The translations under genes were made by a program, and so were the position numbers. Positions 470-40,166 of a DNA stretch of 40,734 bases are shown here, piece by piece (positions within the stretch are counted from its first letter, which is position 1; the number at the start of each line of letters is the position of its first letter). This DNA comes from a virus (Duplodnaviria > Heunggongvirae > Uroviricota > Caudoviricetes). Under the pieces are notes generated by a model. That model saw nothing but the letters and a program-made list of their open reading frames with translations. It was not told the DNA's origin and did no database searches. The stretch lies in IMG/VR virus record IMGVR_UViG_2718217785_000001, one strand, 5' to 3'.

Positions 470-1873
470 TTGAGAATGCCGCGCACTGTAACACATAATC
501 CGGATAGCCCCAATAATGACGATGTTTTAGCCGCATCTGAAAAATGGGACGCCTGTAAACCCCCCTATACCAGCGCACACATGAAAATCTGTGTTGCTGC
601 CGCCAAAATCATCCTCGCTGCTTCCGGTGTGGCTCGCCGTTCCAAATACGAAAAAGAGAACTATCTCCGTATCGATTTCAGCAAAGCCGGTAAGGTTACA
701 TTTTACGCCGAGTTTCCAAAAAAGATGGGCCTCAAAGGTAAAAAGCTCGGCGAGTGGCCGGAGCTCGCTATCCAGCTGGCGCGCGAAAAAGCACTAGGTA
801 TGGCTGACGGTGGACTGCGGGCAGAGTCCGTACATGCAGCGCTGGAAATGTACCGGGATGACCTCAAAGCCAAAGTAGCCCGGCAGAAGCTGAGCCCGGA
901 CAGTTTCACAACCTACGGGGTGCGTATCGACCGGATTAAAGCAACGTTCGGCGAGCGCGAGGTGTTCAGCGACGTAACATACAGTCGGCTGGTGGAAGTG
1001 CTGGACGAGTGGATCGCCACTCGCTCGAACAATAACGCCCTGGAGTTGTTTGCCGAACTCCGTCGGTTCTGGAAGTTCTGCGCACCTACTCTTTGCAACG
1101 GCCGCAATGTTGCCGCCAGTTTGCCAGATGATTATGTTTCCTCCCGCGTACAGAAACCCACCCCCACACGGCTTTTTACCGATATTGAATCAATCGCCCG
1201 ACTCTGGCTCAATGTTGCTGCCTGCACCTCTGTACACCAGAAGAATGCTGTTCGCTTCATGATCATCACTGGCGTTCGTCCGATTAATGTCCATAACCTG
1301 CGCTGGGACTACGTTCACGAGGAGGCTGGTGAAATTGTTTATCCGGAAGGGGTTATCGGCATGCGAGGGGCTATGAAAACACAAAAGGCTTTCCGCCTGC
1401 CGATAACGCCTGAGATCCGGCGGATTATCGACGAGCAGAAAGCCTGGCGTGATTCAGTTCCTGAGTGCAACAGGGATTATGTATTTTTGCAGCCACGTGA
1501 TCCAATGCAGCCATTTTCAAAACGATCACTGGATAAGCTGGTGAAAACATACAGCCCGGACGGGGCTGTAAAAGGAATAAAACATGATGGGACTGTTAAA
1601 GGGAAAGACGGTGCATTTAATACGATGTGCCGTAAATTCCTTAAGAGCAATGTTATTGCCTTGATGAAGGAAAGAGGCTATTCCCGATCAGACCGAAGGG
1701 AAATCAGCCTCCTTTGCCTTCACCACTCCAGCAAGTCAGATGACCCGATGGCAGAACATTACGACTTTTCTGATGAGATTTTACAGGAAGAGATTGCGTT
1801 AAAGCGCGAAGCTTTCGAGGCTCACGAGCGGAGCATACTTGCGCAGGTGGCATTGCTACGGCGGCGAGGTTAA
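470..1873 (+). CDS. int: Phage integrase, tyrosine recombinase (start uncertain; alternative ATG at 581)
   Basis: 467 aa ORF at prophage edge; C-terminal region with conserved R, H-x-x-R and terminal Tyr context typical of tyrosine recombinases; lies next to host gene. Confidence 0.8.
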   Translation: MRMPRTVTHNPDSPNNDDVLAASEKWDACKPPYTSAHMKICVAAAKIILAASGVARRSKYEKENYLRIDFSKAGKVTFYAEFPKKMGLKGKKLGEWPELAIQLAREKALGMADGGLRAESVHAALEMYRDDLKAKVARQKLSPDSFTTYGVRIDRIKATFGEREVFSDVTYSRLVEVLDEWIATRSNNNALELFAELRRFWKFCAPTLCNGRNVAASLPDDYVSSRVQKPTPTRLFTDIESIARLWLNVAACTSVHQKNAVRFMIITGVRPINVHNLRWDYVHEEAGEIVYPEGVIGMRGAMKTQKAFRLPITPEIRRIIDEQKAWRDSVPECNRDYVFLQPRDPMQPFSKRSLDKLVKTYSPDGAVKGIKHDGTVKGKDGAFNTMCRKFLKSNVIALMKERGYSRSDRREISLLCLHHSSKSDDPMAEHYDFSDEILQEEIALKREAFEAHERSILAQVALLRRRG

Positions 1874-2070
1874 TACTGGCTGCGACATTTTTGAATAAAA
1901 GCGTCGACATTTCGGCGCTCATAACGAACTACTTTTGCACTGAAACGAATTGGTGCCAGGATAGCCCGATGACGATGCTTAATATTCCACTCACATAGCG
2001 TTTTCTGTGTAATACCTAACTTTTGGCATACTTCATCCGGGGTGAGTAAATCGTCGGGTTTCTCGCTCAT
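1870..2070 (-). CDS. Small HTH DNA-binding protein, excisionase-like or AlpA-like
   Basis: 66 aa, helix-turn-helix-like segment (LTPDEVCQKLGITQKTLCEW), immediately beside integrase. Confidence 0.55.
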   Translation of the reverse strand: MSEKPDDLLTPDEVCQKLGITQKTLCEWNIKHRHRAILAPIRFSAKVVRYERRNVDAFIQKCRSQY

Positions 2071-3461
2071 GCTATACCTCTCTTTTTCATGGCATCGAGC
2101 AGGATGTCCTGCACTGTTCGTTTTGAGTTGCGCCGCTCCATCACCATTTCGTCCATAGTGTCGGCAGCAATAATGTGGTGAATAAATACCGGACGATTGT
2201 GTCCGGCCTGTATCTGTCTGGTTGGGCCGATACGTTCAATAATTTGCTGATACTGCTCCAGGTCCCACCAATGTGAGAAAAATACCAGTATGTTTCCGCC
2301 GTCCTGCATGTTCAGACCGTGGCCCGCGCTGGCTGGGTGTGCAAAGAGAACAGGAATCTTTCCGGAATTCCAGTCACGTAGTGTCTGTGGATCCTGGTCG
2401 AGGTGACGACCGCGAGGAAATGCTTTAAGCAAGCGTTCAAGATCGTGTTTCCAGTGATAAGCAACCAGCACAGGTGCGCCAGCTGCTTCGGTCAGTATGC
2501 TGTCCAGCGCCTGTAGTTTGGTGTCATGCAGTTCTGACCAACTTCCGGTGTCATCTGTGTATACTGCGCCGCTGGCGATTTGCAGACACTTCAGTGTCTT
2601 TGCCGCGGCGTTTGGTGCTTCGATGCCTTCGCCATTCAGCTCGAGGAACATTTCCTTTTCCATTTCACGATACTGCTGACGGGCCTTCGGCGGCATATCC
2701 ACGCGGATTACGTTATGGATGGGGTCTTTGATATCGAACCAGTCGGTCGCATCCAGCGAGAGGGTCACATCGGCTAACGCTCGCTGTATTTCACCCTGTG
2801 AGTGAGCAAAAGGCTCCAGTTTGGTCCAGCTCTGCCCCGGAAACTGTATCGATTTGAACCAGCGTGAGGTAAACGCGCCGTAAGTGCGCCCGAGACGTTG
2901 CCCCAGGTCCACAAACCACGATTGTCCCCACAAATCTACCAGGCCGTTCGGTGCTGGCGTACCGGTGAGATTTATCCAGCGCCGGACATACTTGTGCGCC
3001 ACTTTGCCCAGCGCCGCCGCGCGCTTACCACCACCTCGCAGCCGGAAGGATTTTAGCCGGGTGCTTTCATCTGGAATGACAGTACCGAACGGCCATCGTT
3101 CTCCCAATTCCTCAACCAGCCAGACAAGGTTATCGTAGTTGATGGTGAACACGCTCGCGTTGTTGTTCGCCAACGCTGCAGAGCGCGCTTTGGCATTACC
3201 AACAATTGATTGTACCTCGATATTGCGCAAATGCCCCCACTTCAGTGCTTCATCCGGCCATGTGCTGGCAGCCACGCGCAGCGGCGCGAGAACCAGCGCA
3301 GGTTGTGTTTCTGCACCCGCCATGAAGAGGTCTTCCAGCGTAGTGAGTGTCGCTACGGTTTTACCCATTCCCATACCCGCCCAGATGTTGCCGCGCAGAA
3401 TGTTAGTTTGGTGATTGATTATGAGGTTTTGATAAATTCTGGGGTGGAATATGCTATTCAT
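2067..3461 (-). CDS. SNF2-family helicase/ATPase (phage replication module)
   Basis: Walker A GMGMGKT, DEST motif II, C-terminal helicase motif ERIGPTRQIQAG. Confidence 0.85.
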   Translation of the reverse strand: MNSIFHPRIYQNLIINHQTNILRGNIWAGMGMGKTVATLTTLEDLFMAGAETQPALVLAPLRVAASTWPDEALKWGHLRNIEVQSIVGNAKARSAALANNNASVFTINYDNLVWLVEELGERWPFGTVIPDESTRLKSFRLRGGGKRAAALGKVAHKYVRRWINLTGTPAPNGLVDLWGQSWFVDLGQRLGRTYGAFTSRWFKSIQFPGQSWTKLEPFAHSQGEIQRALADVTLSLDATDWFDIKDPIHNVIRVDMPPKARQQYREMEKEMFLELNGEGIEAPNAAAKTLKCLQIASGAVYTDDTGSWSELHDTKLQALDSILTEAAGAPVLVAYHWKHDLERLLKAFPRGRHLDQDPQTLRDWNSGKIPVLFAHPASAGHGLNMQDGGNILVFFSHWWDLEQYQQIIERIGPTRQIQAGHNRPVFIHHIIAADTMDEMVMERRNSKRTVQDILLDAMKKRGIA

Positions 3462-3534
3462 TAATACACCTATGGTAGAATATGGTCACTTCTCTCTCTC
3501 TATATATATATATATATAACTAACGGAGGCGGGT

Positions 3535-4332
3535 ATGCCCCTGGCGAAAATATTTACAAAGCAAGTTTCTTTATTAACTATGTTTTCAGCGTTAGCTTAT
3601 GCGATGGCATATTATTTTCAGAAAGGTGTCGCATCGTATTATGGCTATCCAGACCTTTTTATTAAAATAGACTTAAATACGCTATTGTATTCGGCTGTGT
3701 GGCTTTTGTTTTTTAGTTTTTTATTTCTCGGCGCCTTATATGCGGCGTTGATGTTTGATTTGAAAGGAAAATATTATGTTCCATTTATTGTATTTATAGT
3801 TGTTATGCTAATGGCTAATATTTGTATAATAGGATTTCATTGGCCTTTTGGTTATTTCTCCGAAACTTCTGTGATGAGTGTTCAGGATATTTTATTATTT
3901 GCTATGCTTTTGTTGAATTATCACAATGTGGTGTCTATGCCAATCCATAGTAAGAGACACGAACATCATATGGAGAGCATTAGAAAATTTGGGAGGCTTG
4001 CAGAGTATAAGAACGTATTTTATTATATCGATTTAAAAATCCTAAAGTCAGCTTTTCCTTTAGGGGTGATAACGTTGTTGATATTGAGCTATACATTCGG
4101 GAAGGTTACTGCATTTAAAAATAACGAATATTATATGGTAGATGGTAGTAATACTAAAGTGTTGCTCAATTCATTTGGTAGTGGTTTTGTTGTTGGTGAT
4201 TGTGAGTCAAATAGCGCAAAATTTGAATTTGTTAATGATTTAAAAGGGATGAGATTCACAATTATGTCCTCTAAAAAGGAAATAGCTAAATTAAAAGAGT
4301 GTTTCGAAATACGTGTTAAAAATACGGATTAA
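3535..4332 (+). CDS. Low-GC moron encoding integral membrane protein (about 4 N-terminal TM helices plus C-terminal soluble domain), unknown function
   Basis: 265 aa ORF, strongly AT-rich codon usage, opposite strand to flanking replication genes, RBS GGAGG at 3525-3529, hydrophobic N-terminal segments. Confidence 0.6.
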   Translation: MPLAKIFTKQVSLLTMFSALAYAMAYYFQKGVASYYGYPDLFIKIDLNTLLYSAVWLLFFSFLFLGALYAALMFDLKGKYYVPFIVFIVVMLMANICIIGFHWPFGYFSETSVMSVQDILLFAMLLLNYHNVVSMPIHSKRHEHHMESIRKFGRLAEYKNVFYYIDLKILKSAFPLGVITLLILSYTFGKVTAFKNNEYYMVDGSNTKVLLNSFGSGFVVGDCESNSAKFEFVNDLKGMRFTIMSSKKEIAKLKECFEIRVKNTD

Positions 4333-4344
4333 AGCATAAGTCTT

Positions 4345-4632
4345 TTATCCTTTATTGCGGCTTAAAATAATGGCTTCCAGATTTTTGCTATCCAGCACCA
4401 CTACGGTAAAGCCCAGCGCGCGCAACCGTCCGTGTTCGCGCAACTGGTCAGGCCGTGGTGGCTTGCCGGGGGATTTACATTCAACGAAAATGATACGACC
4501 GCCGGGTAGCAGAACAATGCGATCTGGTACCGAGCGGCGACCGGGGGATACGAACTTAAAGGCAACCCCGCCAGCCTTTTTTACTTCAGCGACGAGGTGC
4601 TTTTCGATTAGGTTTTCACGTTCATAGGCCAT
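4345..4632 (-). CDS. VRR-NUC domain nuclease
   Basis: 95 aa with PD-(D/E)xK-like D...ECK motif (PDRIVLL...IIFVECKSPG) typical of VRR-NUC. Confidence 0.75.
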   Translation of the reverse strand: MAYERENLIEKHLVAEVKKAGGVAFKFVSPGRRSVPDRIVLLPGGRIIFVECKSPGKPPRPDQLREHGRLRALGFTVVVLDSKNLEAIILSRNKG

Positions 4633-4826
4633 TAGCTTTCGCCTTCCTGCTTTTTGCGTTTCTTCATGCAGATAGCGCAGTTCTCAGGATGGTCATGCCA
4701 TTCATCAATCCTGATACCTATGAACATCCATTTTCCGCATAGTGATATGGCTTCCCCCGAATTAAAGAAATGTGCTTTTTTTGACAGAGCGGGGAACCCC
4801 CAACCCTTATTATCGATATTAGACAT
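4632..4826 (-). CDS. Small Cys/His-containing hypothetical protein
   Basis: 64 aa ORF tightly coupled to the VRR-NUC gene; contains C-x12-H-x-H-x3-C-x2-C pattern; no family recognised. Confidence 0.4.
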   Translation of the reverse strand: MSNIDNKGWGFPALSKKAHFFNSGEAISLCGKWMFIGIRIDEWHDHPENCAICMKKRKKQEGES

Positions 4827-4862
4827 CGTCCACCTCCTTACGCTTTTCGCGCATGTTCTGCA

Positions 4863-4997
4863 TCAGACAAAAATCAAACCGACGTTCGCTTTGGCCCAGA
4901 CCTGCATCGCCCGGTCGTACCCGCCGGACTGTTCAAGGTGCAAAGCCTCCCGCACAGTCCGGTAATAAAGCGGACTGTCCCGGTATTTAAATGACAT
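4863..4997 (-). CDS. Possible 44 aa small ORF (MSFKYRDSPLYYRTVREALHLEQSGGYDRAMQVWAKANVGLIFV), unknown function
   Basis: ATG-initiated ORF in otherwise noncoding gap, found by manual translation; below the ORF-track length cutoff. Confidence 0.25.
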   Translation of the reverse strand: MSFKYRDSPLYYRTVREALHLEQSGGYDRAMQVWAKANVGLIFV

Positions 4998-5011
4998 AGG
5001 GTTTTTATTCC

Positions 5012-5038
5012 CAAATAAAAAACCCCGCGATGCAGGGT
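5012..5038 (-). terminator. Intrinsic terminator downstream of the TIR-like gene
   Basis: Minus-strand hairpin CCCTGC-ATC-GCGGGG followed by TTTTTTATTT. Confidence 0.5.
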
Positions 5039-5060
5039 TGTAATCAACAATAAGGGGTAA

Positions 5061-5822
5061 TTACGAGGAAGCGTTAGCTATTTGAGCTTGTGTAAATTCG
5101 AAACCAGAATTTTGTAACCGTTGCACTAGACGAGGAACTGTTTCACGTACATGGTCGTTGAAATTCAGATACAAAATCCCGTTAGCATCAGAAGGCTGTT
5201 CTAGGTGCTGTTTCTGAAGGATTGCTACATTGCTGCGCCCTAAGGACGAAAGAAGCATACCCATCTCGAGTACAACGTTCTGTCTTGCGCGGGGTTGGAT
5301 TTCTGCTTCACCGGCGCGCTTTGAGTATCCCATATCATCAGGTGTCAAAAGAACAATCCCGAAACGGGTAGCAGTTTGTCCTTGCCCAATTTCACGTTCA
5401 AGCTCTTCAATAATGGTGAGTCCAGTCCCTCCCGTATTCTGCAAAATGAAATGGTCTGGTAATCCAAGTTTATGAAGGATTAGCTCAAGTTGCTCCTTTG
5501 CAGTATGGTCATGGCCGTGAACAATGAATATCTTTTTGGGGAGCTCAGATGGCTGTTCTACGGCTAGTGGTGTTGCCGTGGGCGGCGTTCCTAAATGGGT
5601 CATTATTGCAGTTTCAACATTGGGACGTTCTTGAGGGTTACCTTGAAACTGAATGGTCCGGGTGGTGTAAAGGTTAACAATTACGCCATTCGTTAAACGA
5701 TAGCAGTCACAAGTCTCACGCTGTTCGTGGGAAAAATTGGTGAACCCACACTCCCCCAAAAAGTCAGGAAAAGATTCTCTCGGGTATGGATAGGTGATCG
5801 GCATTTCAGTTAGTTCCTGCAT
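5061..5822 (-). CDS. Protein with C-terminal TIR-like (COG4271-type) nucleotide-binding domain and unassigned N-terminal domain; candidate defence or abortive-infection effector
   Basis: 253 aa; C-terminal motifs KIFIVHGHD, VLLTPDD, RARQNVVLEMG resemble TIR-like/SLOG-type domains from memory; GC lower than flanking pol gene; own terminator. Confidence 0.5.
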   Translation of the reverse strand: MQELTEMPITYPYPRESFPDFLGECGFTNFSHEQRETCDCYRLTNGVIVNLYTTRTIQFQGNPQERPNVETAIMTHLGTPPTATPLAVEQPSELPKKIFIVHGHDHTAKEQLELILHKLGLPDHFILQNTGGTGLTIIEELEREIGQGQTATRFGIVLLTPDDMGYSKRAGEAEIQPRARQNVVLEMGMLLSSLGRSNVAILQKQHLEQPSDANGILYLNFNDHVRETVPRLVQRLQNSGFEFTQAQIANASS

Positions 5823-5886
5823 AAGTATTGTTCCTTTAATTTACTCGAATTCAGCATGTCGCCATAGCTCGATAAGGTGAGTTATA

Positions 5887-7950
5887 TCAATCTTTTTTGT
5901 AGTGGTACGCCTCAAAACCGCCAGCGTTCAGTGGGATATCGGGCGCCCATTCGGGGTCAGTGGAGAGAAGCGCGGAAAGCGCTTTATCGTTGAAATCTTC
6001 TGTGTCAGGTGCTTCGGTGATCACCTCGTCGTGTACCGTCAGCACAATGCTGTAACCGGCATCTTCGATAAGCGGCATGTTTCCGGCCAGAATGTCGCGG
6101 GCGGCCGCCTGGGTGATGTTCTCCACCAGCTTTCCGCCGTAGGTTTTGAGTCGTTGCCATTTACGCGAATAAGAGTTAACCCCCATGTAGGTGATATTCC
6201 CTTTTTCGATAACCGGAGACGGGTAGCATACAGCGCGTCCTGATGGTAGCTGTATGCGCAGCCACGCGCCATCGCGGCGGATTTTAAGATAACCGCAATA
6301 CAATGTTTTTTGCGGTGTGGCGATTGCAGTGCGGACGGTGCGCTCCAGTTCGTACCAGAAATCACAGGTCGCGGGATGCGCCCGGCGCCAGAGACGTTTA
6401 AGTGAGTCGCAGGCGATAAATACCCGTTCAGAAAGCCCGTAGGTTGACTTGCGTTTAACCGATTCGTCGTACCAGCTTTTCGCCTCGTGGATAACATCGC
6501 GGGGAATGTTTGGTAGTGCGGCGTTCGCCAGCTCGTCGAGATCGAGACCGTAAACCAGTGCAAAAGTGATGAAGGCCGACACACCACCACCATAACCCAG
6601 ACCGAGTTCCATGACTTTACCGATCTGACGCATGTGTTTATCAACATCATCTGGTGCAATATCGAAAGCTTTTGCATACGCCAGTTTATATAAGTCCGGA
6701 CCCGTTCCGGCGTCGTACTCTCTGAATGCATTCAGTTTCCATTCTTCTCCCGCCAGCCATGCCAGCATACGGCCTTCAATGTTCGACAAGTCACTTACCA
6801 CCAGCTTTTTGCCTGTTGGCGCGATAATGCAGCCACGTAACGCTGAACTGGTTAGTTCCATGATATTGTCAAACAGCAGGTCTGCACATCCGGCTTTCAG
6901 TGCTTCGATGCCTTCGTCTATTTGTTCCTGTTTTAGTGAAGGGCGGGGAAGGTTCTGGGGCTGGAATAGCCGTCCGGCCCAACGACCGGTACGTGACGCC
7001 CCGCAGAACTGTAGCGTACCGCGTAAGCGCCCGTCGTGGCTTACGCCTTTCATCAGTGCCTTGTATTTACTGGTGCTGGTAGTACTGGCCTGCAGGCGGA
7101 TAGCCAGCAGTTCTTTCACGGCAGATGGTAAATCGGGGTCGGCAATACGACGTTCCAGAGTACTGCGTTGCATGTCTGGTAGCTCCACACCGTAGGATTC
7201 AACAATGTGCTTAATCAACGCGTCTCGTTGTGTGGCTGCCTGCACTTCGCCATCAGTCATTTCCTGTGTACGCTTTGCCAGGCGCTTTTGTTCCTGGTCT
7301 ACCGCGTCGATCGCAGCGCGTGCGAGTTCCACGTCCATGCAGACGCCCCGGTCATTGATCTGCTGATCACGATGCCAGAGCGTCAGTTCTGTCCCCTGAT
7401 AATTCCACTTCGGCAGACGTTTATAGACTTCGCGCATTGCCTCGATATCCAGTCCGGCGTAAGCAACAAAGCGCCGCCATTCTTCCGGGTGGGTTTTGCT
7501 GGTGGCACGGCGCAGTTTGCTGTTTTTCGGGCGGGGCTTACAGAACAGCTGGATCAGCGCTTTACCTTCTTTGTCCTTCGCTTTGTCTTGCGGGACGCCT
7601 AGTACTTCGCAGAGTTCCCCCAGAGACCCCGGGAGACCGTGCGCCAGCGCCTGCACCATTGTGTCGCGCCAACGTTCGACTGGCGGTGCCAGGCGCGGCA
7701 TTGCATAACGCAGGACGGTGCGGTCGAAGTGAGAGTTATGGAAATAAAGCAGGGTTTCAGGGTCTGCGATTGCTTCGTATAAGCCGTGTGGAATACCACC
7801 ACCGGCAGTGATATCCCACACGTTTACGGGCCCGTCGTTGATAGCCCATGCGAACAGCATCACTTCAACGCCTTCGGCATACGCATGGGTACCGTTCGTA
7901 ATAGGGATTTCGCAATAGGTTTCTAGGTCACCCCATAGTATATTGGACAT
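5887..7950 (-). CDS. Family A DNA polymerase with 3'-5' exonuclease domain
   Basis: 687 aa; exo motif GDLETY, pol motif [17 protein letters not shown], motif [17 protein letters not shown], motif C VHDEV. Confidence 0.9.
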
Positions 7951-8006: not shown

Positions 8007-8276
8007 GTGTTTAGCTTTGGTATCGGAATACTTTCATTGATAGGTATTATTGCTTTCCCCATTCTTTATATTTTAGGGAGAATAGTTCGGGCTGGTGGCG
8101 CATGGCTCGAACGTGAAGAAGGTCCTAAGGATCGTGTTCTTCCCAAAATTATAATTTTTGCGCTTATTGGGTTCTTTCTTGGGTGTTTGGCTCAGCCTGT
8201 ATGGGACAGCATTTCGGCATGTAGAGACTATGGCAATCCAATAGGGAAATGTCTTTTTAAATTCAATGAATTTTAA
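8007..8276 (+). CDS. Low-GC moron encoding small membrane protein (2 TM), GTG start
   Basis: 89 aa, GTG start with RBS AAGGAG at 7995-8000, opposite strand to replication genes, AT-rich, hydrophobic segments. Confidence 0.5.
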   Translation: MFSFGIGILSLIGIIAFPILYILGRIVRAGGAWLEREEGPKDRVLPKIIIFALIGFFLGCLAQPVWDSISACRDYGNPIGKCLFKFNEF

Positions 8277-8343
8277 TTTTTAGTATTGCGGTAGGCTGGT
8301 TTGGATAACTATTTTCTTAAGCCAGCCTTTGTTATAAGAAATA

Positions 8344-8982
8344 TTAAGCATCTACCCCTTCGTCAGAAGGGAGGCCGATCATTTCGTTGAGAGTTTCGCG
8401 TCGTATAGCTGGCGGAAGCGGAGCAGATGGTGCATCGGCTGGCAGAAGTTCTTTAGCTTCAGGCCACTCTTCCAGCAGGCGCTTAACTGTGCGCACTTTA
8501 CTGAGTGCAGCGCTGACATTCTGTCGAATGTCTGACTCATCGCTCTGTATCTGCTCATAAAGTGCATCAAACCCGTAAAACTCTGTAACTAGAGGGTCAT
8601 TTGCCAGAAGGGTAAATTCCCCCGGCGCGATTTTGTGAATATGGTCTGGTGACCCTGATTCATATCCTCGATAGTTACCGTTGAAATAGACGGTAACCCG
8701 AGAACCTGCCAGATTCAGACACATGTAACACTCTTTCCTGATAATATTATTGGCGGTTTTTAATGCTTCGGGGAATTTTGATACCAGTGTTTCTATTTTT
8801 TTTATAATTTTTAATATTTCAGCTTCTTTCTCTACGCCCCCGATAGCTGCAAGCCGAACACGTTCGGCCCATTCAACACGAGCAGCTCGTAGTGCTGATT
8901 TACGTTTGGGGATACCCGCTTTCTCAAGTGCGTTATTGATGATTTGAGTTTTAAGGTGATTAGTTAATACGGGCTGTGACAT
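8344..8982 (-). CDS. Hypothetical phage protein (replication module); ORF could start 15 nt upstream at 8997
   Basis: ORF with RBS GAGGGAAAG ahead of internal ATG (MSQPVL); no family recognised. Confidence 0.55.
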   Translation of the reverse strand: MSQPVLTNHLKTQIINNALEKAGIPKRKSALRAARVEWAERVRLAAIGGVEKEAEILKIIKKIETLVSKFPEALKTANNIIRKECYMCLNLAGSRVTVYFNGNYRGYESGSPDHIHKIAPGEFTLLANDPLVTEFYGFDALYEQIQSDESDIRQNVSAALSKVRTVKRLLEEWPEAKELLPADAPSAPLPPAIRRETLNEMIGLPSDEGVDA

Positions 8983-9034
8983 TATTCTTTCCCTCATGAG
9001 ATACCCCCAGCACGTAGCTGGGGGATGAATATTT

Positions 9035-12598: not shown

Positions 12599-13291
12599 TC
12601 AGAGCAGAACGGAGTACCAAAATACTTGGCCTATAATCCTGATTTTATTAGCCTCTTGATTAAAATACTCTTCGTCTGCGTATTCATCCCTATTGAAAGA
12701 GCGTATCCGGAGTCCGCTTGGGAGACGGTACAATAGTTTGACACGAAGTAATCCGTCTTGGTCTATAGCGTACATTTGACCATCTTTTACACCTGTTTTT
12801 GATGTATCTATGCCGACGACAGCGCCATCCGGTAATACCGGTTCCATGCTGTTGCCGTGGATGCTGACACAAGCCGCACAATTTACGTCAACACCTGCTT
12901 TGCGCAACGTTGAACGGGCGAATCTTAACTTACATCCCATTCGATCTATATCAACATAAGTACCATTACCGGCAGACAGTTCAATTTCCTGATAGAACGG
13001 TATTTCCACTTCATCATCCTCTAATGGTGTTGATGAGTCCCATACAGAAAACCCCCCTTCAACTTGTGCATTAGAATGTATTTCTTTGGTATCGCTTGTT
13101 TTGCCTGAAAGTAGCCACTCTGGAGAAACGTTCAATGCTTCGGCCAGATTTATAAGATTTTTCCCGTTAGGTGTGGTGTTTCCGGATTCCCATTGTGAAA
13201 TCGTGGCTTTAGTTAGACCAATACGTTTAGCAAGCGCATCCTGCGTTAGGTGGACATTGCGACGAGCCTCGCGAATACGATCATTAATCAT
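12599..13291 (-). CDS. cI: CI-like phage repressor (N-terminal XRE HTH, C-terminal S24 LexA-like peptidase)
   Basis: HTH LTQDALAKRIGLTKATISQWESG; S24 region with catalytic Ser context GNSMEP and Lys context LRVKLL. Confidence 0.85.
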   Translation of the reverse strand: MINDRIREARRNVHLTQDALAKRIGLTKATISQWESGNTTPNGKNLINLAEALNVSPEWLLSGKTSDTKEIHSNAQVEGGFSVWDSSTPLEDDEVEIPFYQEIELSAGNGTYVDIDRMGCKLRFARSTLRKAGVDVNCAACVSIHGNSMEPVLPDGAVVGIDTSKTGVKDGQMYAIDQDGLLRVKLLYRLPSGLRIRSFNRDEYADEEYFNQEANKIRIIGQVFWYSVLL

Positions 13292-29384: not shown

Positions 29385-29533
29385 CGGCTGAATACCTCAC
29401 TGATCGCTTCTTTGACTGCGCCAGTTACTGGCGCATTAATCCCTTCGAATTGCTGAATATGCCGATCAGTGAAATTCCCTTGCTGGTCAGTCAGGCAAAC
29501 AGGATAGAGCAGGAGAAACGCACACATGGCTGA
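29351..29533 (+). CDS. Tail assembly chaperone -1 frameshift extension (GT-like fusion with 29115..29372)
   Basis: Overlapping -1 frame ORF entered at TTTTTTC (29366-29372); no independent RBS. Confidence 0.55.
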   Translation: MACGWFFPPGLTAEYLTDRFFDCASYWRINPFELLNMPISEIPLLVSQANRIEQEKRTHG

Positions 29534-31358
29534 ATTTGAGCTTAAGGCGTTGATCACCGGTGTCGACAGGCTTTCTCCGGCGCTGTCGAAAATGCAAAAG
29601 AAAATCCGGGGATTTAAACGCCAGGCGGAAGAAGCGTCACAGGGTGGGCTGGCGCTTGGTGGCGGACTGGCAGCGGGTCTGACGCTTTCCCTGAAATCTT
29701 ATGCCGATCAGGAAAACGCCGCCACCGGGCTGAAAGTCGCCATGATGGATGCGAACGGCGAGGTCGGAAAGAGCTTTCAGGACATCAATAAACTGGCTAT
29801 TGGCCTGGGTAACCAGCTACCCGGTACAACGGCTGATTTTCAGAACATGATGCAGATGCTGGTGCGTCAGGGGATCCCGGCAGAAAACATTCTTGGCGGT
29901 GTGGGTAAAGCGACGGCTTATCTTGCGGTACAACTGAAAAAAACACCGGAAGCGGCTGCTGAGTTTGCCGCAAAGATGCAGGATGCTACCGGAACGGCGT
30001 CAGAAGACATGATGGGGCTGTTCGACACTATCCAGAAGGCGTTTTATCTGGGCGTTGACGATACCAACATGTTGTCCTTCTTCACTAAAACCAGCTCTGT
30101 TCTGAAGATGGTGAACAAGGACGGTCTTCAGGCTGCACAGAGCCTTGCCCCCATCAGCGTCATGATGGATCAGATGGGGATGAACGGGGAGTCGGCAGGT
30201 AACGCCCTGCGAAAAGTTATCCAGTCCGGATTAAGCGTTAAGAAAATCAGGGACGTCAATAAAATCATGGCCCGCCAGAAACTCGGGGTACAGCTCGATT
30301 TTACTGACGGCAAAGGGAGTTTTGGCGGTCTTGATAACATGTTCAGGCAACTGGCAAAGCTGCGAAAACTGACCGACGTTAAACGAACTGGTGTACTTAA
30401 GGCAATATTTGGTGATGATGCCGAAACCCTTCAGGTGGTCAATGCGCTGATCGATAAAGGAAAGGATGGCTACGATCAGATCCAGCAGAAGATGAATAAA
30501 CAGGCCAGCCTGAATAAACGTGTTCAGGCACAGCTTGGTACGCTGTCCAACCTGTGGGAGGCAATGACAGGGACCGCAACTAACGGCCTTGCGGCTATTG
30601 GCGGCGCATTTTCTGGTGACGCTAAAAATATCACGCAATGGCTGGGGGAGTTGGGGGAAAAATTCACGAAGTTTGCGGATGAAAATCCCCGGGTTATTCG
30701 CGGCGTCGTCGGGCTTGCTGCCGGTCTTGCGATTCTGAAACTGGGATTGATGGGCGTGGGCAGTGCCATCAGTATTGTCAGCAGGATCATGTCGATGACG
30801 CCGATTGGCATGATTGCGACGGCGATTGCTCTGGCTGCGGGATTAATTATCACTAACTGGGATGTTGTCGGACCTTATTTCAAGAAGCTCTGGGAAACCA
30901 TTGGTCCTTATTTTGAGGCTGGCTGGGAACTCCTTAAGAAAGTTTTTGCCTGGTCGCCGCTGGGGATGGTGATCAATAACTGGGGGCCGGTTGTTAAGTG
31001 GTTTCAGGATATGTGGGACAAGCTGAAGCCAATTATTGAGTGGTTTACCGACAGTTCCGGTGACACGGTCGATGCCATTAACTCTGCGCAGTGGGGCGCG
31101 GGTGCTTATGATGCTTATGGGACGGGAATACCGGCACGGGGATACACTCCTTATCCGGCGGTGGATCCGGCTCAGGCAAACAACGCCTCCGATGCCACAG
31201 GCCCGAATCCCTTCATGATTAATAAAGCTACCGCGCCAAAAGTTGATGGTGAGATCAAGGTATCATTTATAAATATGCCACCAGGTATGCGGGTTACGGA
31301 AACACGCTCCAGTGGCATTGATATAAATCACGATGTTGGCTATACCCGATTTTGGTAG
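29526..31358 (+). CDS. Tail tape measure protein
   Basis: 610 aa, helical, Gly/Ala-rich TM-like segments, downstream of chaperone. Confidence 0.8.
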   Translation: MAEFELKALITGVDRLSPALSKMQKKIRGFKRQAEEASQGGLALGGGLAAGLTLSLKSYADQENAATGLKVAMMDANGEVGKSFQDINKLAIGLGNQLPGTTADFQNMMQMLVRQGIPAENILGGVGKATAYLAVQLKKTPEAAAEFAAKMQDATGTASEDMMGLFDTIQKAFYLGVDDTNMLSFFTKTSSVLKMVNKDGLQAAQSLAPISVMMDQMGMNGESAGNALRKVIQSGLSVKKIRDVNKIMARQKLGVQLDFTDGKGSFGGLDNMFRQLAKLRKLTDVKRTGVLKAIFGDDAETLQVVNALIDKGKDGYDQIQQKMNKQASLNKRVQAQLGTLSNLWEAMTGTATNGLAAIGGAFSGDAKNITQWLGELGEKFTKFADENPRVIRGVVGLAAGLAILKLGLMGVGSAISIVSRIMSMTPIGMIATAIALAAGLIITNWDVVGPYFKKLWETIGPYFEAGWELLKKVFAWSPLGMVINNWGPVVKWFQDMWDKLKPIIEWFTDSSGDTVDAINSAQWGAGAYDAYGTGIPARGYTPYPAVDPAQANNASDATGPNPFMINKATAPKVDGEIKVSFINMPPGMRVTETRSSGIDINHDVGYTRFW

Positions 31359-31386: not shown

Positions 31387-31414
31387 TTGTAAGTCATAAA
31401 TAGAGTGATAGAAT
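31387..31414 (+). promoter_or_regulatory. Putative sigma70 promoter for tail-module moron (TTGTAA-N16-TAGAAT)
   Basis: -35 at 31387-31392 and -10 at 31409-31414 read from sequence. Confidence 0.35.
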
Positions 31415-31449
31415 TAATGCACATTTAGAAAAATGTTAATAGGCGAAAA

Positions 31450-31980
31450 ATGAAAGGCTATATCACAGCAAGTGTAATTCTTGGAGCAGCGGCTATTTTT
31501 TCATCTCTCATAATCTCTGGCAACATCTCCTTTAAAGATGAACATATTATTCAGTTATCTGGAGGAGCCATAAAACTTGGTGATGTTTATAAAGAAAATA
31601 AATTGATAAGTGCAAAGATTATTTTTCCAGATAATCAGGGTGAACAGATTCTTGTTGTCGACGGCAATCCTGAAAACTTTAAGGAGGATTTTCAGGAGAA
31701 ATTAAATAAAGTAATAAAAACTTTAAATGCGTCAAAGAAAAAAGATGAAGAGAAAGTTAGTCTGGATAATTTAAGTGTTATTGAAGAGTCTAAACTAGAG
31801 CTCGTTTCTGCGGTGCGTTACTCTGCTCAGTATGTTCCTATGTTTACTCTGACGCTGGACAAAAAAGAAATTACCATGCCTAAAAATACGGTAATATTTC
31901 CATTTGCCAGCGATGAAACAGCTAAGTATTTAAATGAACAACAGCAAAAGTATAAAGATTCGTTGTTTCTGACTCGCTAA
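31450..31980 (+). CDS. Low-GC moron encoding secreted or membrane-anchored protein, unknown function
   Basis: 176 aa, N-terminal hydrophobic signal/anchor, Lys/Glu-rich, AT-rich, own promoter-like element and terminator, inserted between tape measure and baseplate genes. Confidence 0.6.
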   Translation: MKGYITASVILGAAAIFSSLIISGNISFKDEHIIQLSGGAIKLGDVYKENKLISAKIIFPDNQGEQILVVDGNPENFKEDFQEKLNKVIKTLNASKKKDEEKVSLDNLSVIEESKLELVSAVRYSAQYVPMFTLTLDKKEITMPKNTVIFPFASDETAKYLNEQQQKYKDSLFLTR

Positions 31981-32030: not shown

Positions 32031-32041
32031 TCGGAGTGTAT

Positions 32042-33370
32042 ATGACGTGGAAAGACAGGCTTCAGGATGCGTCATTTCGAGGTGTGCCGTTTAAGGTTGA
32101 AGAAGAAAGTGCGGGAACCGGTCGCCGTGTGGAAACACATGAATACCCGAACCGCGACAAGCCCTATACCGAAGATCTGGGAAAAGTCACTTTCCGCCCG
32201 TCCATCACAGCTTATGTGGTGGGAGATGACTGCTTTGACCAGCGCGATCGCCTGATTGAAGCGCTGAATAAACCCGGTCCCGGCACGCTTGTCCACCCGA
32301 CATATGGTGAGCTGAAAGTCTGTGTTGACGGGGAAGTTCGGGTCAGCACATCGAAAAGTGAAGGGCGTATTGTCCGCTTTGACCTGAAGTTTGTCGAAGC
32401 AGGAGAACTCTCTTACCCCACATCAGGTGCGGCGACGGCGCAGACGCTGATGTCATCCTGTTCTGCACTGGATGACTGCATCAGTGACAGCTTCAGCGGT
32501 TTCAGTATCGATGGCGTGGCAGATTTTGTGCAGAACGATGTCGTCGGTAATGCCAGCACAATGCTTGGGTATGTTTCTGATGCGATGAAAGTGGTGGATT
32601 CTGCCGTATCGGATGCCGCCAGGCTGTTGCAGGGGGATATCTCGGTACTTCTGCCGCCGCCATCGTCAGGCAAAAATTTCGTTGAGCAGGTGCAGAAAAT
32701 GTGGCGTACCGGGAAACGCCTTTATGGTAACGCCAGCGACCTGGTCACCATGATCAAAACGCTTTCCGGTGTCAGCCTCGGCAGCGATCTGCAACCGCGC
32801 GGCGTCTGGAAAACGGACAGTAAAACCACCGCCACGGCGACGCAGCAGCGTAACGTGGTTGCCAGCACCCTTCGTACGACCGCAATCAGCGAAGCGGCGT
32901 ATGCCGTCACCCGATTGCCTGCGCCAACAACTTCCGCGGTGATGCAGAATTCCGCAGTGGGGCAGGCAACAACACCCGCGCAGAGTACTGGCTGGCCTTC
33001 CGTCACGCATCCGGCACTGAACAATGCACCGGCGGTGAAAAACACGGTTGACCTGCCGACGTGGGAAGAACTGACTGACATTCGCGACACACTGAATACG
33101 GCAATTGATAAGGAGTTGTCCCGTACAACCAGCGATGCGCTGTTTCTGGCGCTGCGCCGGGTGAAAGCAGATCTGAATGCGGATATCAATACGCGCCTTG
33201 AACAGTCTGCACGGATCATTCAGCGCACACCGGATGAGGTTTTACCCGCGCTGGTGCTGGCGGCGACCTGGTTTGATAACGCGGCGCGTGACGCGGACAT
33301 TATCCGGCGTAATGCCATTACGCATCCCGGCTTTGTGCCGGTGATCCCTCTGAAGGTGCCAGTGCAATGA
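32042..33370 (+). CDS. DNA circularization protein (Mu N-like); ORF could begin at GTG 32036
   Basis: RBS GGAG then ATG; N-terminal domain in expected position after tape measure. Confidence 0.7.
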   Translation: MTWKDRLQDASFRGVPFKVEEESAGTGRRVETHEYPNRDKPYTEDLGKVTFRPSITAYVVGDDCFDQRDRLIEALNKPGPGTLVHPTYGELKVCVDGEVRVSTSKSEGRIVRFDLKFVEAGELSYPTSGAATAQTLMSSCSALDDCISDSFSGFSIDGVADFVQNDVVGNASTMLGYVSDAMKVVDSAVSDAARLLQGDISVLLPPPSSGKNFVEQVQKMWRTGKRLYGNASDLVTMIKTLSGVSLGSDLQPRGVWKTDSKTTATATQQRNVVASTLRTTAISEAAYAVTRLPAPTTSAVMQNSAVGQATTPAQSTGWPSVTHPALNNAPAVKNTVDLPTWEELTDIRDTLNTAIDKELSRTTSDALFLALRRVKADLNADINTRLEQSARIIQRTPDEVLPALVLAATWFDNAARDADIIRRNAITHPGFVPVIPLKVPVQ

Positions 33371-39320: not shown

Positions 39321-40166
39321 CTATTGGCGAAGTGGCCATATTTTTCTGTTTTTTAAAAAACTATCTCCAACTATATAACTGCAACAATGTTCACTAAGGC
39401 CATAAAAACTAATTATTCCATATTTATGAGAAGCTATATCAGACAGTTCTGCTAATACTGTGGCAAGCCAACGAGCGATGCTAAGAGAATAGAATCTTCC
39501 CCATTTTTGAACAATGGTATTTTGTCCAGTACGGATGGAGGCTGATATAAGGTCTTGCATCATGTTGGTACTTTCATTCATATACATGATCGTTGTATAC
39601 GGCGAAAGAGTGGCATTGATAAACCTAGCATTTTCTTCAACACGTCTTTGTTCAACTGTATAATAATAATGTTTTTCAAGGATACTCTCGGCTACTTCTC
39701 CCCACCATTTATTAATAGGTTCATTATTGGTTAAATTGGGGCTGCTTAATGAAGAGAAATTTGCGTAACGTCCCCGTCGGGCATCAGCAAAGGAATCTAA
39801 ACATTCAAGTATTTTGTAGGTGATTTTATGTGTAGGACGTGAATATCTCAGAGATAGTTGCATTTTTTTAGAAATACTATCAACCTCGTTGGTTAATTCA
39901 ATGAGCTTATGTCCAAATTTTCTTACAATATTCTCGTCAGGCATTTTTCCTTTATGTTCAATGGCATAGTGTGCAACAAGTATTAGTTTAGCAAGTCTCT
40001 CAAAACCTACAGAAAGCCCAAAAAATGCAGTGTAATACTCACCTATTTTGTCTGCATAATTGGCTTTACCTATGGCTGTTGCCCCAGAACCAATGAGCTG
40101 TGTAACTAAAGATGCTTCTCGGCCCAGAGCGTGCCATGCTGGAATATCCCAGGGATTTTTATTCAC
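39321..40166 (-). CDS. Low-GC cargo gene, unknown function, at the invertase-distal hotspot; candidate defence gene
   Basis: 281 aa ORF, AT-rich, occupies the position where e14 carries mcrA; no recognised motifs. Confidence 0.6.
   Translation of the reverse strand: MNKNPWDIPAWHALGREASLVTQLIGSGATAIGKANYADKIGEYYTAFFGLSVGFERLAKLILVAHYAIEHKGKMPDENIVRKFGHKLIELTNEVDSISKKMQLSLRYSRPTHKITYKILECLDSFADARRGRYANFSSLSSPNLTNNEPINKWWGEVAESILEKHYYYTVEQRRVEENARFINATLSPYTTIMYMNESTNMMQDLISASIRTGQNTIVQKWGRFYSLSIARWLATVLAELSDIASHKYGIISFYGLSEHCCSYIVGDSFLKNRKIWPLRQ

What the first reader, a model, noticed from the sequence alone, without database searches (positions are those of the whole stretch)
3535..4332. Opposite-strand low-GC membrane-protein moron in the replication module
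This 265 aa protein has several N-terminal transmembrane helices and a C-terminal soluble domain, is strongly AT-rich, and is transcribed against the surrounding replication operon. That is the typical signature of a lysogeny-expressed moron such as a superinfection-exclusion or receptor-masking factor. It lies only about 700 bp from the TIR-like gene, though on the other strand.
Basis: partly seen in the sequence, partly recalled or inferred. Interest (0 to 1): 0.55.

Follow-up and report, generated by a model that had tools for sequence, protein, structure and literature searches.

The report
Prophage moron encoding uncharacterised membrane protein
This is a real, horizontally acquired accessory gene sitting in a cargo-swapping hotspot of an E. 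coli prophage; it encodes an inner-membrane protein of an uncharacterised family that probably protects the lysogen from other phages, though that function is untested.

Summary
ORF 3535-4332 (+) encodes 265 aa, has GC 0.32 against 0.51 for the window, and lies against the leftward replication operon, 729 bp from a genuine TIR gene.

Moron status is well supported:
- The stretch ~3435-4385 is an exchangeable cassette between the SNF2 helicase and VRR-NUC genes.
- Sibling E. coli prophages carry other cargo in this slot: BstA, a TIR-like protein, a DUF6338 membrane protein, Rha/Arc regulators, or two further alleles of this same family only 21-25% identical to it.
- An extended -10 element and a strong Shine-Dalgarno sequence precede the ORF.
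- dN/dS is 0.12-0.25.

The protein is predicted N-in with five transmembrane helices. It has a conserved periplasmic loop and a 76-aa C-terminal domain with a strictly co-varying cysteine pair. The AlphaFold model is confident (pLDDT 91) but matches no solved or viral structure. No catalytic-type residue is conserved.

The only labels are phrog_35408 (unknown function) and a precomputed Pfam tag, PF27470 'TfpB', which I could not verify. No pilin gene lies nearby in any locus.

Best guess: a non-enzymatic inner-membrane superinfection-exclusion protein. It is analogous, not homologous, to P22 SieA and HK97 gp15. It is not coupled to the TIR gene.

The parts
3435..4385 (.). Exchangeable cassette (variable segment) between conserved prophage backbone
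   Evidence: In sibling prophages L001 and L003-L006, homology to the window ends at 3425-3435 and resumes at 4366-4385. The swapped segment therefore includes the first ~9 codons of the helicase gene and the last ~10 codons of the VRR-NUC gene.
3473..3481 (+). Extended -10 promoter-like element TGgTAGAAT (TG 3473-3474, hexamer 3476-3481)
   Evidence: Read from the sequence. It is one of only two TGNTANAAT matches in the 40.7-kb window; the other lies just upstream of another low-GC ORF. The element is conserved in L051 and L011, and equivalent elements (TGATAAAAT, TGGCATAAT) lie upstream of homologues in unrelated contexts L007 and L039. This is a consensus-level match only; transcription has not been shown.
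3491..3518 (+). (TC)5(TA)9 dinucleotide microsatellite in the predicted 5' leader
   Evidence: Its length differs by 6-12 bp among otherwise identical leaders of close relatives. It is absent from the Raoultella copy L051.
3525..3529 (+). Shine-Dalgarno GGAGG, 5 nt before the ATG
   Evidence: invariant in six relatives.
3535..4332 (+). CDS, 265 aa, polytopic inner-membrane protein (phrog_35408; precomputed Pfam tag PF27470 'TfpB' on close relatives)
3565..4101 (+). Membrane domain, aa 11-189: five TM helices. It includes the most conserved stretch of the family, TM1 plus periplasmic loop 1 (aa 22-51, motif Y-x3-Y-x4-G-x5-G-x-P-x2-F-I-x2-D-L).
4102..4329 (+). C-terminal domain, aa 190-265: five beta strands plus a terminal helix, predicted periplasmic, with the paired cysteines C223 and C256
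   Evidence: pLDDT about 95 in this region. C223 and C256 are invariant in 19 enterobacterial members. Across 68 members the pair co-occurs: both present in 36, both absent in 31, one alone in 1.

Best explanation
The gene is a moron: an independently transcribed accessory gene acquired horizontally. It sits in a cargo-exchange hotspot between the SNF2-helicase and VRR-NUC genes of a temperate E. coli prophage integrated beside yfhL.

Its product is a non-enzymatic inner-membrane protein. The predicted topology is N-terminus in the cytoplasm, five TM helices, a highly conserved periplasmic loop after TM1, and a 76-aa periplasmic C-terminal domain probably held by a disulfide.

The most likely role is protection of the lysogen against other phages at the inner-membrane/periplasm level, that is, interference with the incoming phage's DNA-delivery conduit or its inner-membrane entry factor (superinfection exclusion). 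On this reading, the three very divergent alleles found in the same slot are different specificity types.

What is shown: gene reality, cassette nature, architecture, absence of known homologues, and independence from the TIR gene.

What is inferred: expression in the lysogen, periplasmic location of the C-terminal domain, any anti-phage role, and the entry-block mechanism.

My estimates: moron about 0.9, some anti-phage role about 0.55, entry block specifically about 0.4.
For: - **Cassette.** The target is in 17 of 5426 complete E. coli genomes, while the flanking helicase is in 158. Breakpoints are at ~3435 and ~4366-4385.
- **Cargo in the same slot of siblings.** BstA, a characterised prophage defence (PADLOC E 1.4e-115); a TIR-like 305-aa protein; DUF6338 plus a 47-aa ORF; Rha/Arc regulators.
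- **Two more alleles of this family in the same slot.** L006 (236 aa) is in 22 genomes and L043 (243 aa) in 6. They are 25% and 21% identical to the target, and each matches the family HMM at 1e-41 to 1e-45.
- **Family members at other accessory positions.** Enterobacter lambdoid prophage between lambda-P and DinI, on the opposite strand. Q-tRNA-[gene]-holin slot in L028 and L034. An intact copy in a decayed prophage remnant with a fragmented helicase (L011).
- **Own expression signals.** TGgTAGAAT at 3473-3481 and GGAGG at 3525-3529.
- **Composition and selection.** GC 0.32; dN/dS 0.12-0.25.
- **Topology.** K/R-poor, net-negative loop 1; positive N-terminus, loop 2 and loop 4.
- **Cysteine pair.** Invariant and co-varying.
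- **Conservation pattern.** Highest in TM1 plus periplasmic loop 1. Lowest in the cytoplasmic loop 4, which is shortened from 35 to 11-16 residues in most members.
- **No catalytic residues.** No polar catalytic-type residue is conserved family-wide.
[quoted passage not shown] HK97 gp15 is a moron-encoded inner-membrane exclusion protein (PMC3594210).
Against: - No expression or phenotype data exist.
- There is no homology to any known exclusion or defence protein. hhalign against P22 SieA and SieB gives probability below 1%. PADLOC finds nothing for the target or 62 family members.
- No terminator follows the ORF. It ends 12 bp from the convergent VRR-NUC stop codon, so one classical moron feature is missing.
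- Some members sit outside recognisable prophages: Serratia beside proA and a metagenomic contig among glycoside hydrolases.
- Distant members occur in Bacillus and lack the cysteine pair.
- Location in a hotspot next to defence genes is guilt by association only.
Confidence: 0.4

Rival explanations
1. Abortive-infection membrane effector or sensor (RexB- or SieB-like). The protein detects infection and collapses membrane integrity or otherwise kills the cell, rather than blocking entry.
For: It is a single-gene membrane protein in a slot that also holds BstA, an abortive-infection system. Its arrangement on the opposite strand inside an early-left operon, with its own promoter, mirrors P22 sieB as annotated in BK000583.
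Against: The cytoplasmic parts are the least conserved and are largely deleted in most members, while the conserved surfaces are periplasmic. There is no homology to SieB. There is no partner gene.
Confidence: 0.17
2. Lysogenic-conversion or host-fitness factor unrelated to phage. Examples would be immunity to a membrane-acting bacteriocin, or tolerance of envelope stress.
For: Morons have diverse roles (PMC3594210). Solitary chromosomal copies exist in Serratia. An intact copy is kept in a decayed prophage remnant. The architecture, polytopic, non-enzymatic and highly divergent between alleles, resembles that of immunity proteins for pore-forming toxins (from general knowledge).
Against: No toxin gene lies adjacent in any context examined. 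Most contexts are prophage accessory slots shared with anti-phage genes.
Confidence: 0.18
3. Type IV pilus accessory protein, taking the precomputed Pfam tag 'TfpB' at face value. The protein would modulate pilin or pseudopilin assembly, as TfpY/FimB-like proteins do, or would block pilus-dependent phages.
For: The precomputed Pfam label PF27470 'TfpB' is attached to P0002, P0003, P0005, P0006 and P0009. TfpY-like accessory proteins are also N-in membrane proteins with periplasmic C-terminal domains (PMC11841053).
Against: No prepilin-type leader motif occurs in any reading frame of the 53 loci held, which include every family context fetched. TfpY-like proteins have three TM helices and a larger two-sheet periplasmic domain (PMC11841053, section 5), unlike five TM helices plus 76 aa here. 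Named members of the target's clade are all Enterobacterales 'hypothetical proteins'. The Pfam model is not in the local library, so the tag could not be re-tested. To my recollection the function of Moraxella TfpB is unknown anyway.
Confidence: 0.05
4. Membrane partner of the neighbouring TIR (PDC-S35) gene in a two-gene defence system.
For: The two genes are 729 bp apart. TIR effectors sometimes work with membrane proteins (general knowledge).
Against: The genes are on opposite strands and separated by two conserved backbone genes. The TIR gene persists with unrelated slot cargo (L003, L005). It is absent where a homologous allele is present (L006). PDC-S35 is catalogued as a single-gene candidate. 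Family members occur in TIR-less prophages.
Confidence: 0.03

Closest known systems
P22 SieA (inner-membrane superinfection-exclusion protein)
   Same: Prophage accessory gene with its own promoter. Inner-membrane protein with no enzymatic motifs. Exists as three sequence types under 30% identical at one locus (PMC10883804), as do the three alleles here.
   Different: No detectable homology (hhalign probability 0.3%). SieA is 164 aa against 265 aa with five TM helices plus a periplasmic domain. Function is demonstrated for SieA and untested here.
HK97 gp15 moron (inner-membrane exclusion protein)
   Same: The defining example of a moron: deviant GC and prophage-expressed. It acts from the inner membrane on the incoming tail/DNA conduit (PMC3594210).
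   Different: gp15 is a small YebO-like protein and is unrelated in sequence. The HK97 moron lies in the tail operon and has its own terminator; no terminator is found here.
P22/lambda SieB
   Same: Encoded on the opposite strand inside the early-left operon, with its own promoter (annotation of BK000583).
   Different: No homology. SieB is an abortive-infection function with a self-protecting Esc product; no such nested ORF is evident here.
BstA prophage defence
   Same: Occupies exactly the same helicase|VRR-NUC slot, in the same orientation, in sibling prophages.
   Different: An unrelated soluble DNA-binding protein.
Pfam PF27470 'TfpB' / phrog_35408
   Same: Close relatives carry the precomputed PF27470 tag. 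26 of 62 family members match phrog_35408.
   Different: Both are labels without a known function. The Pfam model could not be run here. No link to pilin genes is seen.
TfpY/TfpZ/FimB-like pilin accessory proteins
   Same: N-in membrane anchor plus periplasmic C-terminal domain, 235-245 aa, non-enzymatic (PMC11841053).
   Different: They have three TM helices and a larger mixed-sheet domain, and are always next to pilA. Here there are five TM helices and a 76-aa domain in prophage slots. Sequence relatedness was not testable because no TfpY sequence is held.

Membership tests
Moron (Juhala/Hendrix definition, as summarised in PMC3594210) | Extra DNA present in one phage and absent from otherwise similar genomes | tested here: met
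   17 of about 158 E. coli genomes carrying the flanking backbone have it; the others have different cargo.
Moron (Juhala/Hendrix definition, as summarised in PMC3594210) | GC content differs from surrounding genes | tested here: met
   GC 0.32 against 0.52-0.54 in the flanking genes.
Moron (Juhala/Hendrix definition, as summarised in PMC3594210) | Own promoter | tested here: inconclusive
   An extended -10, TGgTAGAAT, lies 54 bp upstream and is conserved; analogous elements occur in independent contexts. This is a sequence match only. The generic two-hexamer scan did not flag it.
Moron (Juhala/Hendrix definition, as summarised in PMC3594210) | Own terminator | tested here: not met
   No terminator-like site follows the stop codon. 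The gap to the convergent VRR-NUC gene is 12 bp.
Moron (Juhala/Hendrix definition, as summarised in PMC3594210) | Expressed from the repressed prophage | not testable with these tools
   Needs RNA-seq or 5'-RACE of a lysogen.
Superinfection-exclusion proteins of the SieA type | Sequence homology to SieA | tested here: not met
   hhalign of the family profile against P22 SieA: probability 0.3%.
Superinfection-exclusion proteins of the SieA type | Inner-membrane location | tested here: inconclusive
   Five predicted TM helices and a charge distribution obeying the positive-inside rule. This is a prediction only.
Superinfection-exclusion proteins of the SieA type | Blocks DNA entry of superinfecting phage without killing the cell | not testable with these tools
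   Requires plaque, adsorption and DNA-entry assays.
Pfam PF27470 'TfpB' | Scores above threshold against the Pfam HMM | tested here: inconclusive
   The model is absent from the local Pfam copy. Precomputed tags exist on P0005 (63% identical, unmarked), on P0002 (86% identical, listed but 'weak') and on P0009. None is on record for the cluster P0001 that is closest to the target.
Pfam PF27470 'TfpB' | Association with type IV pilin genes or the piv inversion region (the namesake, from my memory of Moraxella bovis) | tested here: not met
   No prepilin leader motif in any frame of the 53 loci held. Contexts are prophage slots or solitary.
TfpY/FimB-like pilin accessory proteins | Three N-terminal TM helices plus two beta-sheet periplasmic modules, encoded next to pilA (PMC11841053) | tested here: not met
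   The model has five TM helices and one small beta/alpha domain. There is no adjacent pilin gene.
Catalogued anti-phage defence systems (PADLOC 2.0) | Match to any PADLOC model | tested here: not met
   No hit for the target. Among 62 family members there were only two stray single hits.
DUF6338 (alternative membrane-protein cargo of the same slot) | Sequence homology | tested here: not met
   BLASTP E 2.1; hhalign probability 0.15%.

The most novel reading that the evidence does not exclude
The family (PF27470 / phrog_35408) is a previously unrecognised class of single-protein, non-enzymatic inner-membrane anti-phage exclusion factors. Its fold has no solved or viral-database relative. It circulates among enterobacterial prophages as interchangeable specificity alleles, each presenting a disulfide-stabilised periplasmic face that jams the genome-delivery conduit of particular phages.
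Probability: 0.35. Interest if true: 0.55.

Novelty: new member of a known kind. Interest (0 to 1): 0.4.

Why it matters
If it excludes phages, it would add a new protein family and fold to the short list of inner-membrane exclusion proteins whose mechanisms are still poorly understood (SieA, gp15, Imm). It offers three natural allelic types in one slot for mapping specificity. It would also mark the helicase|VRR-NUC junction of this prophage group as a defence hotspot that can be mined, since BstA, TIR-like and DUF6338 cargo lie beside it. Practically, such genes shape the susceptibility of clinical E. coli to therapeutic phages. If it does nothing against phages, it is one more uncharacterised moron.

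Tried and rejected
**Family libraries.**
- Pfam, NCBIfam and PADLOC scans of the target and of up to 62 family members gave nothing meaningful.
- PHROGs gave only phrog_35408, of unknown function.

**Structure.**
- The first AlphaFold run, with 8 close sequences, failed (pLDDT 47).
- The second run, with 68 sequences, gave pLDDT 91.
- The AFDB libraries were unavailable, so a fold comparison with TfpB, TfpY or AFDB models was impossible.

**Pairwise profile comparisons.** hhalign against P22 SieA, P22 SieB and the DUF6338 cargo were all negative.

**Searches of annotated collections.** tblastn of the target against 50,697 phage genomes and 72,556 plasmids found no match.

**Word-indexed homologue searches.** Searches with broad alignments were swamped and returned few proteins.

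**Locus retrieval.** I replaced it with a hand-made degenerate motif, which found five further true loci.

**Literature.** Searches for TfpB/PF27470 found only the unrelated Acinetobacter PilB-like 'TfpB' and 'Tfpb' pili. The 1990 Moraxella paper is not held.

**Coupling to the TIR gene.** Rejected on the distribution of the two genes.

**Lysis role.** Suggested by homologues lying beside holins in L028 and L034. Rejected because the window copy is far from the lysis genes, is on the opposite strand, and is dispensable in sibling prophages.

Full report
**Observation.**
Its GC content is 0.322 (GC3 0.316). The flanking helicase, VRR-NUC and PolA genes have 0.535, 0.524 and 0.542, and the window as a whole 0.507. 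All neighbours from 1870 to 7950 are on the minus strand.

These neighbours are an HTH/Xis-like gene, an SNF2 helicase (2067-3461), a VRR-NUC nuclease (4345-4632), a 64-aa ORF, a TIR protein (5061-5822) and a family-A DNA polymerase. The TIR protein matches PF10137 at E 2.9e-31 and PADLOC PDC-S35 at E 2e-108.

The window is IMG/VR contig UViG_2718217713_000001. It corresponds to a prophage integrated next to yfhL in E. coli strains such as IAI1 and 14EC029. That prophage has an S24/HTH repressor at 12599-13291, a primase, Q, a lysis cassette and a contractile-tail-type structural module. The target therefore sits inside, and against, the early leftward replication operon.

**Is it a real gene?**
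Yes. Against alleles 2.5% and 15% diverged at synonymous sites, dN/dS is 0.12 and 0.25. An exhaustive profile search of 1.84 billion cluster representatives found 69 proteins at E <= 1e-3, of which 15 were at E <= 1e-10. Nearly all are 230-290 aa and align end to end.

**Anatomy of the protein.**
Kyte-Doolittle analysis gives five hydrophobic spans: aa 11-28, 52-74, 82-102, 119-137 and 173-189.

An AlphaFold2 model built on a 68-sequence alignment is confident (mean pLDDT 91.1, pTM 0.87). It has helices 13-36, 47-76, 81-99, 116-152 and 167-195. These are followed by five strands (200-243) and a terminal helix (247-264).

Charge distribution across 19 members follows the positive-inside rule for an N-in topology. 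The N-terminus, loop 2 and loop 4 are net positive. Loop 1 (aa 29-51) has zero to two K/R and is net neutral or negative. This places loop 1, loop 3 and the 76-aa C-terminal domain in the periplasm.

Two cysteines in that domain, C223 and C256, are invariant in the enterobacterial clade. Across 68 members they co-occur almost perfectly: 36 have both, 31 have neither, 1 has one alone. That is what a structural disulfide in an oxidising compartment would look like.

Conservation is highest in TM1 plus loop 1, with the motif Y22-x3-Y26-x4-G31-x5-G37-x-P39-x2-F42-I43-x2-D46-L47. It is lowest in the cytoplasmic loop 4, which shrinks from 35 to 11-16 residues in most members.

Residues conserved in at least 60% of the family are Tyr, Gly, Pro, Phe, Ile, Leu, Ala and one Asp. 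No catalytic-type constellation is present. I read the protein as a non-enzymatic binder or blocker whose working face is periplasmic. That reading is inference.

**No known relative.**
- Pfam, NCBIfam and PADLOC give nothing for the target or the family.
- PHROGs gives only phrog_35408, of unknown function, matched by 26 of 62 members.
- AFDB was not available.
- Profile comparisons with P22 SieA, P22 SieB and the DUF6338 protein that occupies the same slot elsewhere are negative.
- No cultured phage genome and no plasmid encodes a detectable homologue.
- Every named member is a 'hypothetical protein'. The target's clade comes from Escherichia, Raoultella, Enterobacter, Serratia, Yersinia, Lelliottia and Izhakiella. 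Distant members come from Bacillus and from metagenomes.

**The 'TfpB' tag.**
The protein collection carries a precomputed Pfam label, PF27470 'TfpB', on several relatives: P0002, P0003, P0005, P0006 and P0009. It is marked weak for P0007 and, in one table, for P0002. That model is not in the local Pfam copy, so I could not rerun it.

From memory, tfpB is an ORF of unknown function in the pilin-inversion region of Moraxella bovis and M. lacunata. No paper in the library covers it.

I tested the only implication I could. None of the 53 loci held, which include every family context fetched, contains a prepilin-type leader motif in any frame.

The characterised pilin accessory proteins TfpY/TfpZ/FimB have three TM helices and a larger two-sheet periplasmic domain (PMC11841053). 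That differs from the five TM helices plus 76-aa domain here. So the tag names the family but says nothing about function, and a pilus role is unlikely in these contexts.

**Comparative genomics: a cargo hotspot.**
The gene with its leader occurs in 17 of 5426 complete E. coli genomes. The adjoining helicase segment occurs in 158. Homology between the window and siblings with different cargo stops at about 3425-3435 and resumes at about 4366-4385. The exchanged cassette therefore carries the extreme 5' end of the helicase gene and the 3' end of the VRR-NUC gene.

In siblings the slot holds:
- a full-length BstA (PADLOC E 1.4e-115);
- a 305-aa protein with a TIR-like region;
- a DUF6338 membrane protein plus a 47-aa ORF;
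- Rha and Arc regulators;
- two further alleles of this same family.

The two further alleles are a 236-aa type in 22 genomes (L006) and a 243-aa type in 6 genomes (L043). They are 25% and 21% identical to the target. They are not detectably similar to each other by BLASTP, yet each matches the family HMM at 1e-41 to 1e-45. All three alleles are low in GC (0.32-0.37).

Three sequence types under 30% identical at one prophage locus is exactly what has been described for P22 SieA (PMC10883804).

**Other contexts of the family.**
- A Raoultella prophage of the same type, integrated elsewhere, has the gene in the same slot.
- An Enterobacter hormaechei lambdoid prophage carries a 63%-identical copy between the lambda-P-like replication gene and dinI, again on the opposite strand.
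- Two lambdoid elements carry a member immediately after a phage tRNA-Met and immediately before the holin, in the classical Q-to-S accessory region.
- A decayed remnant next to uvrC/pgsA keeps an intact copy and VRR-NUC, while its helicase is split into fragments. This suggests the gene is kept for the host's benefit.
- Solitary copies exist beside proA in Serratia and near a YafO/Phd-like toxin-antitoxin pair in Izhakiella.
- There is no conserved partner gene, so it acts alone.

**Expression signals.**
The 73-bp gap between the helicase start codon and the ORF contains TGgTAGAAT at 3473-3481, an extended -10. It also contains a (TC)5(TA)9 microsatellite at 3491-3518 and GGAGG at 3525-3529, five bases before the ATG.

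TGNTANAAT occurs only twice in the whole window, on either strand. The second copy (31406-31414) lies 36 bp upstream of another low-GC ORF. The total number of matches is not above chance, but their positions are striking.

The element is conserved in the Raoultella copy and the remnant copy. Equivalent elements (TGATAAAAT, TGGCATAAT) precede homologues in unrelated contexts.

No terminator follows the gene. Its stop codon is 12 bp from the convergent VRR-NUC stop codon. Transcripts would therefore run antisense into the early operon.

**Relation to the TIR gene.**
There is none that I can see. The TIR gene is retained with unrelated slot cargo (L003, L005). It is absent where a homologous allele is present (L006) and from the BstA-carrying sibling (L004). 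Family members occur in prophages without it.

**Mechanism.**
The pieces are:
- a gene dispensable to the phage and independently transcribed;
- retention of the gene in prophage remnants;
- allelic hyper-divergence in a slot shared with proven anti-phage cargo;
- a non-enzymatic inner-membrane protein whose conserved parts face the periplasm.

Taken together, I think the most likely role is superinfection exclusion at the genome-entry step. This is analogous to P22 SieA and HK97 gp15 (PMC10883804, PMC3594210).

I put about 0.9 on 'moron', about 0.55 on some anti-phage role, and about 0.4 on an entry block.

The rivals are an abortive-infection membrane effector (0.17), a phage-unrelated fitness or immunity factor (0.18), a type IV pilus role (0.05) and coupling to the TIR gene (0.03). 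All functional statements are inference. Nothing here measures expression or phenotype.

**Novelty and verdict.**
The kind of thing, a prophage moron encoding a membrane protein in a defence hotspot, is well known. The family itself is uncharacterised. Its confidently predicted fold has no match among solved structures or viral models. The finding is a reasonable candidate for experimental defence screening but is not a surprise to a specialist. Interest: 0.4.

Noticed in passing
window 31406-31980: A second low-GC (0.34) accessory ORF, 31450-31980 (+), 176 aa, with one N-terminal TM/signal-anchor and no Pfam hit. It is inserted between the tape-measure gene (29526-31358) and the DNA-circulation gene (32036-33370), a position like that of the HK97 gp15 moron. 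It is preceded by the only other TGNTANAAT element in the window, at 31406-31414.
   Followed up: partly
window 8007-8997: A second variable slot lies after the DNA polymerase gene. Here it holds an 89-aa two-TM ORF on the + strand (GC 0.40) plus an Nmad5-domain gene (8344-8997, PF18757 E 1e-56). Siblings IAI1, 14EC029 and phage 689R2 instead carry a 209-aa + strand membrane protein there.
   Followed up: partly
window 39321-40166: A low-GC (0.37) 281-aa ORF on the minus strand at the right end of the prophage, beyond the tail-fibre assembly genes. It has no Pfam hit and no TM segment. It may be another accessory gene.
   Followed up: no
window 3491-3518: The (TC)5(TA)9 microsatellite in the target's predicted leader varies in length by 6-12 bp among relatives whose flanking leader sequence is otherwise identical. 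It is absent from the Raoultella copy. It might tune expression; this was not tested.
   Followed up: partly
window 5061-5822: The TIR-domain gene matches the PADLOC single-gene candidate system PDC-S35 over its full length (E 2e-108) and phrog_16442. It is present in many but not all sibling prophages.
   Followed up: partly
window ~4826-5000: RefSeq annotates the equivalent stretch in IAI1, 14EC029 and Rb-50 as a frameshifted ANR-family regulator pseudogene. Other siblings have it intact.
   Followed up: no
L011-L014 (about 6900-9100 in L011): A decayed prophage remnant beside uvrC/pgsA in an unidentified enterobacterial metagenome lineage. The helicase is split into 118-aa and 228-aa fragments, while the family member (P0007) and VRR-NUC remain intact.
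   Followed up: partly
L028 7302-8099; L034 3939-4736: In two lambdoid elements a family member starts 17 bp after a phage-borne tRNA-Met(CAT) and ends just before the holin gene. L028 also has a tRNA-Thr, a TET-associated glycosyltransferase and a DUF2971 gene nearby.
   Followed up: partly
L003 2302-3065: The alternative cargo DUF6338 (206 aa) has a similar overall layout, an N-terminal TM bundle plus a C-terminal beta domain, but no detectable homology to the target. It is followed by a 47-aa proline-rich ORF.
   Followed up: partly
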